Source: Candidatus Woesearchaeota archaeon | GTDB lineage: Archaea; Nanobdellota; Nanobdellia; Pacearchaeales; GW2011-AR1 | Direction: 5' to 3' | Assembly (NCBI GenBank): GCA_964372205.1 | Contig: CAYJQB010000001.1 | Coordinates: 551,699 to 615,698, forward strand | DNA length: 64,000 nucleotides | In this document: piece after piece, positions 2,724 to 60,500 of the stretch | Numbering within the stretch: the first letter of the stretch is position 1 | Layout: each line of letters opens with the position of its first letter | Position numbers and translations under genes: made by a program | The notes under the pieces: generated by a model | The model's input: only the letters and a program-made list of their open reading frames with translations | What the model was told of the DNA's origin: nothing | Database searches by the model: none

Positions 2724-3089
2724 TTATCTTGCTTGCTTTGCAAAAGGAAAATAAGTGTTAAACTCTGAAGTTCCTCTATGAAAATAATCAATTTGAGCTC
2801 TGCTTCCCGAATCCCTTCCATTTGGACTTATAGTTAAGTCATCAACCGGAGCCTCTACCTTGCAGATCTTATGATTTCCATCCATGCCTATCATAACAAC
2901 TCTTCCGCCTCCAATATGTGAAATATATGCATTTCCTGAGAATCTACTGCCTGATGTAGAGCTTGCCGATACTGCATAGACTTCTCCAACTCGCACTGGT
3001 GGACTTCCAACCCCTTCACGAACTTGAGCTGCAGTAGCCATTGGCGTAGGTCTTGAATTCTTATGAGGATTAAATTTTTGTTTGCCCAT
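2724..3089 (-). CDS. hypothetical protein
   Basis: ORF; start moved to MGKQK at 3089; no recognisable motif. Confidence 0.5.
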   Translation of the reverse strand: MGKQKFNPHKNSRPTPMATAAQVREGVGSPPVRVGEVYAVSASSTSGSRFSGNAYISHIGGGRVVMIGMDGNHKICKVEAPVDDLTISPNGRDSGSRAQIDYFHRGTSEFNTYFPFAKQAR

Positions 3090-3168
3090 TTTACCAGTTC
3101 TTTCAATTTTTTTGTGTTTAAAAATATTATTGCAAAACATTTAAATCTCCATTTGAGTAAAAAATCTT

Positions 3169-3558
3169 ATGGTGAGAAAAGAAGGTGGTCATCCAGTACT
3201 ATCTAACAAAAGATCTTTTGGACAAAGAGCAGCAGATAATCTTACAAACTGGGCAGGTTCATGGGCATTCATAATAATTTTTTTATTGATAATAGCGTCC
3301 TGGATAATTATTAATGGATATTACCTTGTCAAATCGTCTGGTGCAAATCCATTAGACCCTTATCCGTTTATTTTGTTAAATCTTGCACTCTCTCTAGTTG
3401 CAGCAATACAAGCTCCTATAATTTTAATGTCTCAAAATAGAGAGGCTCAAAAAGATAGGCTTAGAGCTCAATACGATTATGCAGTTAACAGAAAAGCTGA
3501 AAGAGAAATCCAGGAAATAAGGCAACAACTTAGCAGAATAGAAAGAAAAATAAGATAA
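3169..3558 (+). CDS. DUF1003 family membrane protein
   Basis: GSWAFII, DPYPFILLNL and QAPIILMSQNR motifs. Confidence 0.85.
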   Translation: MVRKEGGHPVLSNKRSFGQRAADNLTNWAGSWAFIIIFLLIIASWIIINGYYLVKSSGANPLDPYPFILLNLALSLVAAIQAPIILMSQNREAQKDRLRAQYDYAVNRKAEREIQEIRQQLSRIERKIR

Positions 3559-23579: not shown

Positions 23580-24380
23580 TCAAATCCAGCCCCTCTTCCT
23601 TATGCCCTGATTATATATCTGGAAAATAAAACTTTTTTCAGCAAGACTTCTATGTTTTCTCAAATAAGCAACCCTTCTTCCTTTATCGTTCTCAATCTCG
23701 ATAAGGCATTTACTCCAATATTTCAATATGTCTCCTCCGACCATTCTTTTTTCATTATCCCAGCTGTAAATTTGATTTGTAACAAGAACAGGAATATTCT
23801 GTTTTCTGGCAATCTCTGCAAGAAGTCTCATCTGCCTAGTAAGTTCAGCATTCACTTTTTGTATATGCTGAATGTCTTTCTCCATTTTTCCATTTTCAAC
23901 ATCTTCAAGTTTCTTTTCCCGAGCATCAGCAAACTCAAGTCTATAAAGCATAGTCATCCCATCTACAATAATCAAGCTTATTTTATTGTTCAAATATTTC
24001 AATAGCTGGTCAAAAGCATCTTTCTGTTCCTTAAAACTTGTAGGTTTCAATAATAATATGTTCTCAAGCACTTTATCCAACTCCCCGTTCTCATTGTCAG
24101 CACCAATCAACTGCTTCACTCTTTCAGAAGAAAAGCCTCCTTCAGTATCTATAAATATCACTTTATTTCCTTTTTTAGCTTGTGAAACCGCTGCGCACAA
24201 ACAAAAGTTTGTTTTCCCACTTCCAGCCCCCCCATAAAAAGTTGTTATTATGTCAGAATCATACCCTCCATGAAGCCATCTGTTCAAGTCATAACTTCCG
24301 GCAGATAGCTTCCTGTTCCCTGGACTCCTAGAACCCGGAGAGGTTGTAGAGTCATAACTTCCGGCAGATAGCTTTACCAT
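23580..24380 (-). CDS. radB: DNA repair and recombination protein RadB, with a 21-aa duplication/insertion at the N-terminus
   Basis: Walker A GGAGSGKT, FIDTEGGFSSER, Walker B IIVDG, GGDILKYWSK and KHR motif; KLSAGSYD occurs twice. Confidence 0.93.
   Translation of the reverse strand: MVKLSAGSYDSTTSPGSRSPGNRKLSAGSYDLNRWLHGGYDSDIITTFYGGAGSGKTNFCLCAAVSQAKKGNKVIFIDTEGGFSSERVKQLIGADNENGELDKVLENILLLKPTSFKEQKDAFDQLLKYLNNKISLIIVDGMTMLYRLEFADAREKKLEDVENGKMEKDIQHIQKVNAELTRQMRLLAEIARKQNIPVLVTNQIYSWDNEKRMVGGDILKYWSKCLIEIENDKGRRVAYLRKHRSLAEKSFIFQIYNQGIRKRGWI
24287..24374 (+). repeat. perfect 25-bp direct repeats flanking a 38-bp insert (period 63, in-frame)
   Basis: agtcataacttccggcagatagctt at 24287-24311 and 24350-24374. 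Confidence 0.97.
24312..24349 (+). mobile_element. putative mini-element, copy C (insert in radB)
   Basis: Core ctggactcctagaacccggagaggttgta (24320-24348) matches 57513-57542 at 26 of 30 aligned positions; mobility is inferred. Confidence 0.6.
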
Positions 24381-24454
24381 GAATATCCGTCAATTATCAG
24401 ATATATAAAAATTAGTATAACGAATAAATATAAAATAAAAAAATAAAATTGTTT

Positions 24455-57320: not shown

Positions 57321-57352
57321 CACTTCCAATTTTAGTCTCTTTAACTCTAGAG

Positions 57353-57387
57353 GGTTGCTGAACTCATAGAACTCACTAGAAGTTGTA
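57353..57387 (+). repeat. mini-element, copy A (tRNA-Leu leader)
   Basis: ggttgctgaactcatagaactcactagaagttgta; 30/35 identical to copy B. Confidence 0.85.
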
Positions 57388-57388
57388 A

Positions 57389-57473
57389 GCGGGGATGCCG
57401 GAGTGGTCAAACGGGCTGGATTTAGGCTCCAGTGTGCTTAGTGCCTACCTAGGTTCGAATCCTAGTCCCCGCA
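57389..57473 (+). tRNA. tRNA-Leu(TAG)
   Basis: GCGGGGA acceptor stem, CTGGA-TT TAG GC-TCCAG anticodon arm, long variable arm, A73. Confidence 0.95.
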
Positions 57474-57474
57474 T

Positions 57475-57491
57475 GTGAATCAAAGATTCAC
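57475..57491. other. perfect 7-bp hairpin directly after tRNA-Leu
   Basis: gtgaatc-aaa-gattcac; function unknown. Confidence 0.6.
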
Positions 57492-57507
57492 TATCTGTAG
57501 GACTCGT

Positions 57508-57542
57508 GGTTGCTGGACTCATAGAACCCGCTGGAGGTTGTA
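57508..57542 (+). mobile_element. putative mini-element, copy B
   Basis: ggttgctggactcatagaacccgctggaggttgta, 1 nt before the duplicated tRNA 3' end; mobility is inferred. Confidence 0.6.
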
Positions 57543-57588
57543 TAATCCTAGTCCCCGCATTTCTAATCTAATTCAGAATCTTTTATTA

Positions 57589-60500
57589 CTAGTATATCGA
57601 AATAATACCAGTAGTGCCCTCATCTATAGGAGCAATGTCAACCTTCTTCCCATCTAATTCATCCAAGATTTCTCTATTCTTATCAGAAATTGAATCGAAG
57701 AAGTTTATTTTATTTATAACAAGAGCCGTAGACACACTGCTTGTCCGGGCTACGGGTCCTTTTCTCACTCCACTCTCTCCCACAAAAACAGGGTTCTCAT
57801 TTGTCCCCTCAAGGTTCACCATATAGAAATCAGTAGCTTCATTGTTCCTATATATCACATAAACTTGTCTTCCTGACAGACTAGGATGCTCCTCCAATTT
57901 AAAGTAAAATTCGGGCTCTTGATTTACAACAGTATCATTGATGTCTTCTTCGACAACATTTTCATTTTCATCCCCAACCGTTTCAGGACTAGTTTCAGGA
58001 GGAGTGATTTTTTCAGCAACAGGAAGCTCTCTATAGACAATTATCTCTTTCACCATGGCTTCTATAAGTCTTACATTTGCCTTCTGATAATTAAGGAAGA
58101 ATCCTAAAAAGTTGTTTTCAATATCCTGGACAAGTCTATCAGCTTTAGTTCTATCATAGTTCTTCTCAAGCTCATCTTTCTGTTTCTCAAATTCATCTAT
58201 TTTACTTATAGATTCATCCTTCCCGTATATTTCTCCTCTTTCAATCAGGTAATCCTGTTGTCTTTCTTCTAGTTCACTTAAAGTAGCATTCTTCACAGCA
58301 ATATTGTTTGTAGTGATAGCATTATCTACGCTATTTTTATCAAGCCAGCACCTTGTCTGCTGATTTCCACAATATCCTACATCAACAAATCTGAATGCCT
58401 CTGTTCCAGCTCCAGGATTAGAAGTTGCACATATCCTTACAATACCTCTGTTATAGATTGCAGGATTTAATGCTTCTTCAGCCCCAGCTTGAATATTTGG
58501 ATTAAGCAACGCAGCTGGGTTTGTGCTTCCAGAAATACATTCTTCAGCTGACGTAACTGTTTGCTCTGTAAGACTTCCCTCAACCGCTTTGTCACTCAAA
58601 TAATCCAAGGCAAAGCTACTAGTCACTTGCTTAAATCCACACTCTTCTTTCCCGTTTATCATAACGCAAAGCTGTTGGTATCCCTCTGGAGCTGTGAAGT
58701 CCATACTCTCTGTTTTGAACTCTCCTCTGCCAATGAACCCAGAATCAACCTGTATTCTAGATGGCACAGAATAGAACTCTTCTTGAGGAGGGTCTTTCAA
58801 ATAAACGCTAAATGCCACTCCCTGATTCTCGCCAGCAAATATATGATAGAACACTTTGTACTGAGAAGTTGCTGGAACAGTCACATCCGTGAATGTTGTC
58901 GAACTAAACCAAGCATGGAACTGAGGAGGACTATCCGGAGCAACAAGAGTCTCAAAATCTGTAGGCACGCTTACTGAAACGAAAGCTCTACAGAACTCTG
59001 TTCCAGCTTCTTCGAGAGATCTCGCTTGGAATGCTTCAAATGAATTGACAGCATAAGTCTGTGTAAAGTAGTCTATAGACTCGTCGGTATTATCAAAAGC
59101 TGCTTGAACAGATGAGTACTCTCCTCCTCCTCGTACGCCTCTTCCAAATCCATTATAAGAGCCACTTACAAGTCTTGGCAATACCTCCTTAGCAACAGGA
59201 GTTATCTGTCTCCAGAAAAAGTCACACATGTAAACAGAGCTTATCTGATCGCAGATTCCAATTTGATTTCCAGTCTCCAAACTTTCAATAAGACATTGTT
59301 GATGAGACTCTAATATTGAAACATAGCCATCAATTCCAGATTTAATGCCTGTAAGGCATACGGGAATGATTACTCCTTCTCTGATATTAGGCAAACAAAG
59401 CAATGCACTTCCAACAATTCCTGTCTGTACAACATCTGCAACAGGCCATTCTCCTCCAAGATCACATCTACTTGCAGGACAAATTACAGGATCACAGACA
59501 TTGAATAACACCTGACAATCGCTGACACTCATAAAATCCTGACATTGTGGAGAGTCGTAATGAGAATATGTTGTGCTCTGGTCAAACACATCTCCAAATA
59601 TATTAACCAACTTATTCCCTCTCTGTGAATTTGCTTCTCTCAACGCAGTTCTAGACCTCTCAACCAATTTTTGAGATTGACTTTCCCCTAATCCAAGAAC
59701 TGGAATATTTGCAGCTGTCTGAGAGAATATTATCTGACACTCATCCCCAGTATCTACTCTTCCGTCAGTTCCAACATTGCATATCTGCCAACTGTTTACA
59801 GCTCCTGAACTATCATATGCAGGTATTTCCGTTCCAAGACTTACAACTCTAGCATACCACCCGTTATCTACATCAAAAGGCACAACAGCAGCCATTCCTT
59901 TATCAGGACCAGTGCCAAAATATCTCACAACTCTATCAGCCGGAGCTATCTGATTGCTAAATGAACCAGCTTCCTCTCTAAACCACCCCAATCTATTATC
60001 CTTCAGAAACTGTTCAGCTCCCTGAACTTCAGAATATCCTTCGACTTCTGTAAGTCTTATCTCATTAACAGGATTCCCTATCTCCTCATACTTGTACAAT
60101 GCTGTAGGATTTCTCATCTCCCCTTTGACAACCTCTCCAACAACTAAGAATGAATCAGCTCTTTCAGCAGAGTTCTCCCCCTCCCCCTCTACAACCACTC
60201 CTTCAACATAAACAGCTTTCTGTCCCTCTTGAAGATTTCCACCAGTTACCTTTATTCCGTCAAGATTTCCAGAACTGTACTCTAAGAACTTTCCTGCTTT
60301 TGCAACACCATAATCCCTTGTTGGAGCAACAATCCCATATTTCTTTAATCCGTTTGCATTTTCACTAGCAAGCCTATCATCATAAAACTCTTTATTGACT
60401 TCAATTCTATCTTTTACTCTATTGAGCTCCAAAGAAACATCAGCACCACTATTCTTTTCCAATTCAAGATTGTAAGCCAGCTCTCTCAAATCGTTCTGAG

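What the first reader, a model, noticed from the sequence alone, without database searches (positions are those of the whole stretch)
24287..24374. In-frame insertion with 25-bp target duplication at the start of radB
RadB begins MV-KLSAGSYD-STTSPGSRSPGNR-KLSAGSYD-LNRWLHGG. The 63-bp period preserves the frame. The two 25-bp copies are identical even at synonymous positions, so the event is recent. A foreign insert is tolerated in an essential-type repair gene, recalling Rickettsia palindromic elements that add peptides to proteins.
Basis: partly seen in the sequence, partly recalled or inferred. Interest (0 to 1): 0.75.

Follow-up and report, generated by a model that had tools for sequence, protein, structure and literature searches.

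The report
Hairpin mini-element inserted into radB
A 38-base hairpin element from a previously undescribed, widespread family in tiny DPANN archaea recently inserted just behind the start codon of the DNA-repair gene radB, duplicating 25 bases of it and adding a floppy 21-residue tail; the same family also sits in other essential genes, at gene starts and in tRNA introns, arranged so that its host genes keep working.

Summary
Window 24287-24311 and 24350-24374 are identical 25-mers flanking a unique 38-nt, 58%-GC insert inside radB (23580-24380, minus strand). The closest relative has the exact empty site, and two independent assemblies carry the identical insertion. The insert belongs to a ~37-38-nt hairpin-element family: 6-7 copies in this genome, present in 8 of 41 related Pacearchaeota, and 109 metagenome hits. 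Its stem covaries and has an invariant G.G mismatch. Validated target duplications range from 11 to 25 nt. Four contexts recur:
- Directly before start codons, where the element supplies a stop codon at its 3' edge and a GGAGG ribosome-binding site.
- At the 5' start of canonical tRNA introns.
- 3' of tRNAs, with the tRNA tail duplicated.
- In frame inside essential genes (RadB, ProRS, GatB, topoisomerase I, transketolase).
In radB it lies in reverse orientation in an open frame, so RadB gains a disordered N-terminal tag. It is not a bulge-helix-bulge intron and not a CRISPR mis-integration. No transposase, Cas1 or reverse transcriptase was found, so the insertion mechanism is unknown. The Rickettsia-palindromic-element analogy holds in behaviour, not in membership.

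The parts
23580..24380 (-). radB ORF (266 aa) including the 63-nt in-frame addition
   Evidence: TIGR02237 and Pfam Rad51. Residue 25 aligns to residue 2 of the solved RadB 2CVF. AlphaFold gives a confident core and pLDDT<50 for residues 1-39.
24350..24374 (-). Target duplication, promoter-proximal copy (codons 3-10, KLSAGSYD); now part of the N-terminal tag
   Evidence: 25/25 identical to 24287-24311. The empty allele L001 has a single copy.
24312..24349 (+). The 38-nt element CCTGTTCC-CTGGACTCCTAGAACC-CGGAGA-GGTTGTAG, read on the + strand; it is antisense to radB and translated as (S)TTSPGSRSPGNR
   Evidence: CM R1 47.5 bits, E 2e-7. Identical over 35/35 nt to a copy in the Crystal Geyser genome. 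Hairpin covariation.
24287..24311 (-). Target duplication, gene-proximal copy: the native codons 3-10 continuing into the RadB core
24401..24409 (-). TATA-like box TTTATATAT at -29..-21 from the radB ATG, implying a leaderless or near-leaderless mRNA, so the insertion lies at about +7..+31 of the transcript
   Evidence: Read directly from the sequence; the TSS position is inferred, not measured.
57351..57388 (+). Family copy A, directly abutting the 5' end of tRNA-Leu(UAG) (57389-57473); absent at this site in same-genus genome G001
57506..57543 (+). Family copy B, 3' of tRNA-Leu(UAG), followed by a 17-nt duplicate of the tRNA tail (57544-57560 = 57458-57474)
   Evidence: The native trailer follows the second repeat copy, so the intervening DNA is an insertion.

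Best explanation
The 63 nt are a recent insertion of a ~38-nt non-autonomous hairpin mini-element, together with a 25-bp target-site duplication, 6 nt behind the radB start codon.

Shown:
- The element belongs to a dispersed family with defined ends: consensus nTGTTCC/GGTTGC-TGGACTCCTAGAAC-(variable stem and loop)-GTTGTAN. Its right end is the last base pair of a conserved, covarying hairpin that carries an invariant G.G mismatch.
- Insertions create target duplications of variable length. The validated ones are 11, about 22 and 25 nt; those at tRNA tails are 17-25 nt.
- The family is built so that it does little harm in any context. In forward orientation behind a start codon, two of the three reading frames terminate at the element's 3' edge (a TAG stop that is the end of the element itself, or a TGA overlapping the next ATG) and the third at an internal TAG, and a GGAGG Shine-Dalgarno sits 6-7 nt before the regenerated start codon. 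In reverse orientation two of three frames are open and encode Ser/Thr/Pro/Gly-rich linker peptide. In tRNA anticodon loops it lies at the start of spliced introns.
- In radB the element is in reverse orientation. Because 38+25=63 and the frame is the open TTSPGSRSPGNR one, RadB is made with a 21-residue longer N-terminus ahead of an intact ATPase core. The N-terminal region is predicted disordered.

Inferred:
- Mobilisation is in trans, by an unidentified activity that makes widely and variably staggered cuts.
- That activity prefers the first ~30 nt of transcription units and tRNA genes.
- Purifying selection in a compact genome then keeps only the harmless outcomes.
For: Empty site and recency:
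- Precise empty site in the sister genome.
- Both repeat copies share a derived base.
- The repeats are 25/25 identical although the sister genomes differ at 12% of nucleotides.

A real family:
- 6-7 copies in this genome; present in 8 of 41 relatives; 109 metagenome stretches.
- Covariation C:G<->A:T in 7 copies and C:G<->T:A in 9; 98.8% of cells paired against 25-65% when the register is slid.

Independent filled/empty pairs showing target duplications:
- CG10 L034 (11 nt) and G001 L015 (~22 nt) against this genome.
- tRNA-Leu(UAG) is empty in G001, has a 17-nt duplication here and a 25-nt one in CG10.
- tRNA tails in metagenomes have duplications of 18-23 nt.

Recurrent hits at radB:
- The Crystal Geyser RadB carries a degenerate copy (TTSLNSRSLGQR) at the same site, plus a second copy at its ATG (E 0.0025).
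- The window's insert is 35/35 identical to an unrelated CG10 copy.

Context logic:
- 26 of 73 non-redundant metagenome copies are followed at 0-1 nt by an ATG opening an ORF of at least 50 codons.
- In 11 of 14 cases a uORF ends exactly at the element's edge.
- The downstream genes are diverse housekeeping genes.

In-frame insertions elsewhere: ProRS; GatB, TopA, transketolase and E2.

Protein tolerated: 2CVF alignment and AlphaFold.
Against: - No candidate mobilising enzyme was found. This genome has no Y1 transposase, TnpB, DDE_Tnp_1, Cas1 or reverse transcriptase, only three tyrosine recombinases.
- A variable 9-25-nt target duplication fits no characterised prokaryotic transposase.
- Older start-codon copies show no residual similarity between the presumed duplicate and the gene start. 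The duplication model for that class therefore rests on one recent case plus the uORF geometry.
- The GC-type hairpin is thermodynamically weak on its own (-2.9 kcal/mol, z 0.2).
- The SD and stop-codon layout could mean that part of the family is a functional leader rather than a selfish insert.
- No copy in this genome matches the full-length radB insert as well as the CG10 copies do, so the donor is unknown.
- No reads could be examined.
Confidence: 0.75

Rival explanations
1. RNA-mediated origin. The unit is a DNA copy of a small processed RNA: either the 5' part of a tRNA intron released by the splicing endonuclease (which begins CUACAAC...), or a tRNA 5' leader released by RNase P (which ends ...GUUGUAN-3'). 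It would be inserted by retro-like or RNA-templated break repair, which would naturally give variable target duplications, one precise junction and filler at the other.
For: In canonical introns of at least 8 different tRNAs, the element starts 0-1 nt from the 5' splice site. Copy A is the leader of tRNA-Leu and ends at the RNase P site, and RNase P RNA is present. The right junction is always precise, while 12-61 nt of filler separate the left end from the first repeat copy at tRNA tails. Duplication length varies as in target-primed insertion. Tandem 39-nt arrays occur.
Against: There is no reverse transcriptase in this genome or in CG10. Both ends of the unit are well defined in recent insertions, so truncation is not seen. 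The two RNA versions imply opposite strands. No RNA data are available.
Confidence: 0.15
2. The 63 nt (or some other segment) are an archaeal bulge-helix-bulge intron removed from radB mRNA, so the protein is normal.
For: The family is linked to tRNA introns. A BHB-like structure (outer 5, central 4, inner 10 bp) spans the radB 5' end, and its predicted 5' cut falls at the left edge of the duplication.
Against: No BHB, strict or relaxed, excises 63 nt. The strong BHB-like motif would remove 109 or 107 nt (46 or 44 in the empty allele) and break the frame. It is native to the gene, being also present in L001. About 17 comparable motifs exist on the chromosome. The scanner did recover genuine tRNA BHBs.
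Confidence: 0.04
3. The element is primarily a functional cis-acting module (a translation-initiation or regulatory leader with a uORF, hairpin and SD), and the radB copy is a domesticated or regulatory feature rather than a neutral selfish insertion.
For: About half of the GC-type copies sit directly before start codons with GGAGG at -7..-11, and the conserved uORF peptide GCWTPRTRWRL ends at the main ATG. The core sequence is far better conserved than the genomic background: 35/35 identical against 79%.
Against: In radB the element is in the opposite orientation, inside the ORF, where neither the SD nor the stop is used. Presence and absence vary between sister genomes. The downstream genes are unrelated in function. 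Copies also occur in both orientations in introns and inside ORFs.
Confidence: 0.1
4. Ectopic CRISPR spacer integration: a 25-nt pseudo-repeat duplicated around a 38-nt spacer.
For: The 25+38 geometry falls within the CRISPR range, and a CRISPR-like array exists on contig C9.
Against: No Cas1 in the assembly. The C9 repeat is ~36 nt, not 25. The 'spacer' is a multicopy conserved element.
Confidence: 0.01

Closest known systems
Rickettsia palindromic elements (RPEs; Ogata et al. 2000; reviewed in PMC10969869)
   Same: Short palindromic, hairpin-forming repeats that are found in frame inside many unrelated essential genes, add peptide segments tolerated by the host protein, have no transposase of their own and occur in reduced genomes.
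   Different: RPEs are ~100-150 bp, bacterial, and are not reported with long variable target duplications, a start-codon-abutting class or a tRNA-intron class. This element is 37-38 nt, archaeal (DPANN), and its forward strand carries a stop and an SD. Sequence relationship was not tested (I fetched no RPE sequence).
MITEs, REP/BIME elements and IS200/IS605-derived PATEs
   Same: Small non-autonomous repeats with a structured hairpin and conserved flanking bases, presumably mobilised in trans.
   Different: No terminal inverted repeats beyond the single hairpin. The target duplication is long and variable rather than short and fixed (MITEs) or absent (IS200/IS605, REP). No Y1 or DDE transposase in the genome. 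The element is frequently intragenic.
tRNA intron 'transposition' and intron gain from integrating elements in Archaea (Fujishima et al. 2010, from my own knowledge; Sugahara et al. 2012, PMC3293823)
   Same: Related intron sequences are shared between different tRNA genes, and tRNA 3'-end direct repeats flank inserted DNA.
   Different: Here the shared module is a defined 37-nt hairpin that also inserts outside tRNA genes, in protein-coding genes and at gene starts, with target duplications. att-based integrase models cannot produce that.
Ty3 integration at Pol III transcription start sites (from my own knowledge)
   Same: The junction of the element lies within 0-1 nt of the first transcribed base of tRNA genes (copy A, L087) and of presumably leaderless mRNAs.
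   Different: Ty3 is an autonomous LTR retrotransposon with a fixed 5-bp duplication. No integrase is known here, and the TSS positions are inferred, not mapped.
Integron attC sites (archaeal integrons: Ghaly et al. 2022, from my own knowledge)
   Same: An imperfect hairpin with conserved ...AAC/GTT... at the stem base, an unpaired base, a stem-loop of variable length, and a position just upstream of the next gene's start codon.
   Different: No cassette arrays in this genome. Target duplications are not a feature of attC recombination. No IntI was identified, and the three tyrosine recombinases were not examined further.

Membership tests
RadB (host gene) | Match to the RadB equivalog model above its curated cut-off, with an intact Walker A and RecA core | tested here: met
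   TIGR02237 199.3 bits against 172.4; GGAGSGKT is present; 2CVF alignment; confident AF2 core.
Rickettsia palindromic elements | A palindromic repeat inserted in frame in multiple unrelated protein genes | tested here: met
   RadB, ProRS, GatB-like, TopA, transketolase, E2 linker; hairpin covariation.
Rickettsia palindromic elements | Element length ~100-150 bp and membership of one of the RPE sequence families of Rickettsia | tested here: not met
   The unit is 37-38 nt and the organism is a DPANN archaeon. Sequence comparison with RPEs was not done.
MITE | Terminal inverted repeats and a short target duplication of fixed length | tested here: not met
   One internal hairpin and a 16-nt 5' tail, with no TIRs. 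Duplications of 11, 17, ~22 and 25 nt.
MITE | A related autonomous IS with a transposase in the same genome or lineage | tested here: not met
   No Y1_Tnp, TnpB or DDE_Tnp_1 in this genome. CG10 has one DDE gene of unknown relation. Other transposase families were not searched.
Archaeal BHB intron in an mRNA | A bulge-helix-bulge motif at both boundaries whose excision restores the reading frame | tested here: not met
   A scanner calibrated on this genome's tRNA introns finds no BHB for a 63-nt excision. The only strong motif removes 107 or 109 nt.
Archaeal BHB intron in an mRNA | The spliced mRNA is observed | not testable with these tools
Ectopic CRISPR spacer integration | Cas1 present; duplication equal to the system's repeat length; a unique spacer | tested here: not met
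   No Cas1; the C9 repeat is ~36 nt; the insert is multicopy.
REP/RAYT or IS200/IS605 PATE | A Y1 (HUH) transposase partner; insertion without target duplication | tested here: not met
   No PF01797 hit; clear target duplications.
Integron attC | An array of cassettes, each ending in an attC hairpin, next to or apart from an IntI integrase | tested here: inconclusive
   Copies in this genome are dispersed, not arrayed. The AAC...GTT stem base and variable loop resemble attC. IntI-specific features of the three tyrosine recombinases were not examined.

The most novel reading that the evidence does not exclude
This family may be a new kind of prokaryotic mobile element, derived from the 5' module of tRNA introns. 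It would be inserted by a mechanism not yet described: either variably staggered cleavage or RNA-templated insertion, directed at transcription start regions and tRNA loops. Its sequence would have evolved to be neutral in every context: a stop codon plus a ribosome-binding site in the forward orientation, open linker-coding frames in the reverse orientation, and removal by splicing when in tRNA anticodon loops. If so, it would directly link the gain and spread of archaeal tRNA introns to a mobile DNA element. It would also show how a selfish element can persist in 0.8-Mb genomes that have almost no non-coding space.
Probability: 0.25. Interest if true: 0.9.

Novelty: new variant of a known kind. 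Interest (0 to 1): 0.75.

Why it matters
- It is, as far as I could find, an undescribed archaeal counterpart of the Rickettsia palindromic elements: selfish hairpin DNA living inside essential genes of a highly reduced genome.
- The same 37-nt module forms the 5' end of canonical introns in many different tRNAs and also inserts elsewhere with target duplications. This gives a concrete, testable handle on a long-standing question: how archaeal tRNA introns are gained and spread.
- The layout of stop codon, Shine-Dalgarno sequence and regenerated start codon is a neat solution for inserting behind the start of leaderless genes without killing them. It also creates short uORFs, which affects gene calling and the annotation of translation starts in DPANN genomes.
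- The variable 9-25-nt target duplications, with no known transposase, Cas1 or RT present, point to an insertion activity still to be identified.
- In practice, N-terminal extensions and odd insertions in DPANN proteins (RadB, ProRS, GatB, TopA, transketolase) can be recognised as copies of this element rather than lineage-specific domains.

Tried and rejected
- **BHB intron.** I wrote and calibrated a BHB scanner. No motif excises 63 nt, and the strong BHB-like hairpin is native and frame-breaking.
- **CRISPR off-target integration.** No Cas1, the wrong repeat length, and a multicopy insert.
- **IS200/IS605, REP, TnpB, DDE and RT partners.** None in this genome.
- **Known RNA family.** No Rfam hit on the element or on the GC-rich stretch that follows it in G020.
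- **Viral origin.** No exact-pattern hits in IMG/VR for either subfamily.
- **Residual target duplications in old start-codon copies.** Local and ATG-anchored comparisons show no excess over controls (Wilcoxon p=0.79). Only the recent CG10 copy keeps its 11-nt repeat.
- **Regulon-leader idea.** The downstream genes are functionally diverse.
- **Promoter idea.** The element has no TATA-like box at the right distance (read from the sequence); the TATA-like boxes lie upstream of the uORF ATG.
- **RNase P absence.** Rejected, because RNase P RNA is present.
- **Thermodynamic support for the GC-type hairpin.** Not significant; the support comes from covariation only.
- **Read-level checks** (empty allele, transcription, splicing).
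- **Genome of the empty-site relative (L001).** Not held for whole-genome search.
Full report
**1. The observation**

On the + strand of the window, AGTCATAACTTCCGGCAGATAGCTT occurs at 24287-24311 and again at 24350-24374. The two copies are 25/25 identical with start-to-start spacing 63. The 38 nt between them (24312-24349) occur once in the window, and dinucleotide shuffles expect zero matches for either sequence.

The region lies at the 5' end of the ORF 23580-24380 (minus strand, 266 aa). This ORF reads MVKLSAGSYD-STTSPGSRSPGNR-KLSAGSYDLNRWLHGG. It is RadB: TIGR02237 scores 199 bits against a cut-off of 172, and Pfam gives Rad51. The insert region is about 53% GC in a genome of 36% GC.

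The window is C1:551699-615698 of an 814-kb, 22-contig assembly. The best protein hits carry Pacearchaeota/Nanoarchaeota names, so this is a DPANN archaeon.

**2. It is an insertion, it is recent, and it is not an assembly artefact**

All RadB orthologues examined begin M-x-K-[LIV]-SAG with one copy of the motif.

The closest relative is P0001 in GCA_053534795.1, at 93.5% aa and 87.7% nt identity. It is 245 aa, exactly 266-21. Its DNA has a precise empty site: ATGGTA|AAGCTGTCTGCTGGAAGTTATGACT|TGAAT.

At position 12 of the repeat both window copies have C. The sister genome and the outgroup (Crystal Geyser genome CG10, GCA_002763075.1) both have T. The duplication therefore happened after that substitution, that is, after the split from the sister lineage. 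Perfect identity of the repeats against 12% background divergence points the same way.

The exact 266-aa protein is on five contigs. Two independent ENA assemblies (ERZ13692936, ERZ13693099) are identical to the window over 1,401 nt including the insertion.

**3. The insert is a member of a dispersed family**

A k-mer search, then a pattern search and nhmmer, found six clear copies and one degenerate copy on contig C1:
- radB.
- 3' of tRNA-His, followed by a duplicate of the tRNA tail (CTCCTTCCGCTTT).
- Directly 5' of tRNA-Leu(UAG), at window 57351-57388. I missed this copy at first; it was flagged by an earlier first-reader note.
- 3' of tRNA-Leu(UAG), at window 57506-57543, followed by a 17-nt duplicate of the tRNA tail.
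- Inside the intron of tRNA-Leu(UAA).
- At the 5' start of the intron of tRNA-Gly(CCC), which also holds a second, degenerate copy.

The degenerate intron of tRNA-Lys(CUU) in this genome is also related.

A covariance model finds the family in 8 of 41 related genomes. These include the same-genus CG10 genome, with 8-11 copies, and five other genera. A strict 23-base pattern finds 109 stretches in metagenomes from groundwater, lakes, sediments and ocean. It finds none in viral contigs.

**4. Anatomy of the element**

Thirty aligned copies show an invariant ACTC(C/A)TAGAAC and GTTGTA(G/T). The stem is CTAGAAC(C)/(G)GTTGTAG.
- The base before TAGAAC covaries with the last base of the element: C...G in 21 copies and A...T in 7.
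- The inner pair switches C-G to T-A in 9 copies.
- A G.G mismatch is invariant.
- The distal stem and loop vary from 6 to about 22 nt while staying complementary.
- 98.8% of cells are paired, against 25-65% when the register is slid. No shuffle reaches the observed covariation score.

The right end of the element is therefore exactly the base of a conserved hairpin. About 16 nt (nTGTTCC- or GGTTGC-TGGACTC) precede it. Recent insertions show that both ends are defined, giving a unit of 37-38 nt.

Thermodynamically the GC-type hairpin is weak (-2.9 kcal/mol as DNA, z 0.2). The AT-type is stable (-6.4 kcal/mol, z -3.3). The evidence for structure is thus covariation, not energy. Rfam has nothing for the element.

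**5. Target duplications are real and variable**

Besides radB (25 nt), filled/empty pairs give the following.
- CG10 locus L034 has an 11-nt duplicate, ATGAAAGATAA, spanning a start codon. The two flanks map to overlapping positions in this genome.
- G001 locus L015 has a duplicate of about 22 nt. Both copies map to the same place in this genome.
- At tRNA-Leu(UAG), G001 is empty on both sides. This genome has copy A, and copy B with a 17-nt duplication. CG10 has a different 68-nt insert, containing a reversed degenerate element, between perfect 25-nt repeats. In this genome the native trailer follows the second repeat copy, so the sequence between the repeats is inserted DNA.
- Metagenomic copies 3' of tRNA-Lys, -Arg, -Gln, -Thr and -Leu have duplications of 18-23 nt that begin in the T-loop right after GTTGTAG.

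The right junction is always precise. At tRNA tails, 12-61 nt of other sequence separate the first repeat copy from the element's left end. This filler often contains a second small hairpin.

**6. Recurrent hits at radB**

The CG10 RadB (84% aa identity) reads ...TTSLNSRSLGQR-KLSAGSYD.... This is a diverged copy at the same position. A second copy sits at its ATG (cmsearch E 0.0025).

The window's insert is 35/35 identical to an unrelated CG10 copy (L034), while radB itself is only 79% identical between the two genomes. Under neutrality that identity has a probability of about 3e-4.

Together with the derived base shared by both repeat copies, this argues for independent insertions at the radB 5' end rather than one ancestral event. 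It also shows that the element's sequence is either constrained or recently spread. No copy in this genome matches the full-length radB insert as well as the CG10 copies do, so the donor is unknown.

**7. Where the family lives, and why it is tolerated**

*(a) Gene starts.* Of 73 non-redundant metagenomic loci, 26 are followed at 0-1 nt by an ATG that opens an ORF of at least 50 codons. These make up about half of the GC-type copies; chance expectation is about 3%.
- The right arm ...GGAGGTTGTAG places a GGAGG Shine-Dalgarno 6-7 nt before that ATG.
- In 14 of these loci another ATG lies 10-20 nt upstream of the element.
- In 11 of those 14 it opens a 15-18-codon uORF that runs through the element and stops exactly at its edge. 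The stop is either the element's own terminal TAG (peptide ...GCWTPRTRWRL*) or a TGA overlapping the main ATG (ATGA). The third frame stops at the internal TAG.
- TATA-like boxes lie about 21-30 nt upstream of several of these upstream ATGs (read).

This fits the upstream ATG being the original start of a leaderless gene, retained as the first copy of a target duplication. It is an inference: only the recent CG10 case still shows the duplicate, and older ones show no excess similarity.

The downstream genes are diverse housekeeping genes: uL11, uS5, uS14, eL40, eL42, PheRS-beta, CDC48 and a GTPase. The element is therefore not a regulon leader.

*(b) tRNA genes.* The AT-type is found at the 5' start (0-1 nt from the splice site) of canonical introns of tRNA-Gly(CCC), Gly(GCC), Lys(CUU), Phe, Cys, Ser, Thr, Leu and others, in several genera. 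It also abuts the +1 of tRNA-Leu (this window) and of tRNA-Glu (L087). RNase P RNA is present, so a leader can be removed.

*(c) Inside ORFs, in frame.*
- ProRS of CG10 carries three tandem 39-nt units (TTSPGSMSPGNRHD x3). The orthologue in this window is empty.
- Others are a GatB-like amidotransferase in two genomes, topoisomerase I (forward frame AGLLEPAGGCR), transketolase (HPVP-TTSPGSRSPG-FSW, the same peptide as in radB) and an E2 lipoyl linker.

In reverse orientation two of three frames are open, and they encode Ser/Thr/Pro/Gly-rich peptide.

**8. Consequence for RadB**

- Residue 2 of the solved T. kodakarensis RadB (2CVF) aligns to residue 25 of this protein, which is the second KLSAGSYD.
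- AlphaFold with 45 orthologues gives a confident core (pLDDT 84-95) and pLDDT below 50 for residues 1-39.
- No in-frame ATG/GTG/TTG follows the first ATG until a TTG after the second repeat, and starting there would remove the conserved KLSAGSYD.

The likeliest product is therefore RadB with a 23-residue disordered tag. A TATA-like box at -29..-21 (window 24401-24409) suggests a leaderless mRNA. The duplicated segment would then be about +7..+31 of the transcript. This is inferred, not measured.

**9. Alternatives tested**

*BHB intron.* A scanner that recovers the strict BHBs of this genome's tRNA introns finds none that would excise 63 nt from radB mRNA. A strong BHB-like hairpin (outer 5, central 4, inner 10 bp) is native to the gene, would remove 107 or 109 nt and break the frame, and is one of about 17 such motifs on the chromosome. 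I treat it as a native hairpin, while noting that the left edge of the duplication coincides with its base.

*CRISPR mis-integration.* There is no Cas1. The array on C9 has ~36-nt repeats. The 'spacer' is multicopy.

*Known transposition systems.* This genome has no Y1 transposase, TnpB, DDE_Tnp_1 or RT. It has three tyrosine recombinases, but site-specific recombination cannot create a 25-bp duplication in radB.

**10. Mechanism**

Shown:
- The insertion carries a target-derived duplication.
- The unit has defined ends.
- One junction is precise, at the base of the hairpin.
- Duplication length is variable.
- Targets recur: the radB 5' end, tRNA tails, tRNA +1 and start codons.
- The sequence layout neutralises damage.

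Inferred: a trans-acting activity makes staggered cuts 9-25 nt apart, preferentially in the first ~30 nt of transcription units and in tRNA genes. Fill-in follows, and selection then filters the outcomes.

An RNA-mediated route remains possible (about 15%). In it, an intron 5' fragment or a tRNA leader would serve as template. That would explain the variable duplications, the polarity and the 39-nt tandem arrays, but no RT is present.

**11. Comparison with known systems, and novelty**

In behaviour this is the closest archaeal parallel to Rickettsia palindromic elements (PMC10969869). It fails RPE and MITE membership on size, on absence of terminal inverted repeats, on the nature of the duplication and on absence of a partner transposase.

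It extends the ideas of tRNA-intron 'transposition' and of intron gain from mobile elements (PMC3293823; Fujishima 2010 from my own knowledge), because the shared intron module also inserts outside tRNA genes. The start-site precision recalls Ty3, and the hairpin recalls integron attC sites. Both are analogies only.

I found no description of this element in the searchable literature. I rate it a new variant of a known kind, namely small non-autonomous palindromic elements that colonise genes. There is a real chance (about 25%) that the insertion mechanism is new.

Noticed in passing
genome contig C9:1016-1727 (outside the window): A CRISPR-like array (repeat GTTTCAGTGGTGTATCAATTCCTAAGGCTACTCAAAG, ~36 nt, period 70-72), although no Cas1 is detectable in the assembly.
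   Followed up: partly
window 24315-24396 (radB mRNA 5' end, minus strand): A native BHB-like hairpin spans the start codon: AUAUU-CAUG-[GUA]-AAGCUAUCUG ... CAGAUGGCUU-CAUG-[GAG]-GGUAU. It is also present in the empty allele L001. The left edge of the 25-nt duplication coincides with its base. It is one of about 17 comparably strong motifs on the chromosome. Its function, if any (translation control, fragile site), is unknown.
   Followed up: partly
L035 (CG10 genome, G041:C5 ~3077-3191): Prolyl-tRNA synthetase carries three tandem 39-nt element units in frame, between NIPY and the C-terminal zinc-binding CxxC. Internal units end ...GGTGTCAT instead of ...GGTTGTAG, and the same variant junction recurs in a second array (L038). 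Head-to-tail arrays with a period equal to the element length also occur in non-coding DNA (L037).
   Followed up: partly
genome C1:247411-247512 and C1:295196-295297 (outside the window): Both tRNA-Lys genes have an 18-nt duplicate of their 3' end 84 nt downstream, enclosing a conserved 66-nt insert of a different sequence family. Earlier agents noted the same. This suggests a general mini-insert phenomenon with 16-25-nt duplications in this lineage.
   Followed up: no
L090, L121, L126, L131 (metagenome loci); window 57475-57491: In the tRNA-3' class, a second small perfect hairpin (e.g. AAATCC-GTGA-GGATTTG, AAATTC-TGAA-AGAATTTG; here GTGAATC-AAA-GATTCAC) lies between the first repeat copy and the element, often directly abutting its left end. 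It may be part of a composite unit.
   Followed up: no
genome C1, all family copies: All seven copies in this genome lie in the same orientation on contig C1, on both sides of the presumed terminus. This could be chance (about 1 in 64 for seven copies) or an orientation bias.
   Followed up: no
L013 (G020:C1 ~60379-60440) and L079: The element's right end is followed, after ~20 nt, by a GC-rich stretch (CCGGAGGCGCGAAGCGCCGACCGCGCCCGCC...) that looks like a structured RNA but has no Rfam match.
   Followed up: partly
protein P0043 (RadB orthologue, another lineage): Its N-terminus, MKSTTSR-VSAG..., might be a trimmed remnant of a further element insertion at the radB start (STTS...R), which would be a fourth hit at this site. 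The evidence is weak.
   Followed up: no
genome contigs C5, C10-C15, C17, C18, C20, C21: Small contigs have 47-68% GC against 36% for the main chromosome. They are probably binned from another organism or a mobile element. One carries a tRNA-Thr.
   Followed up: no
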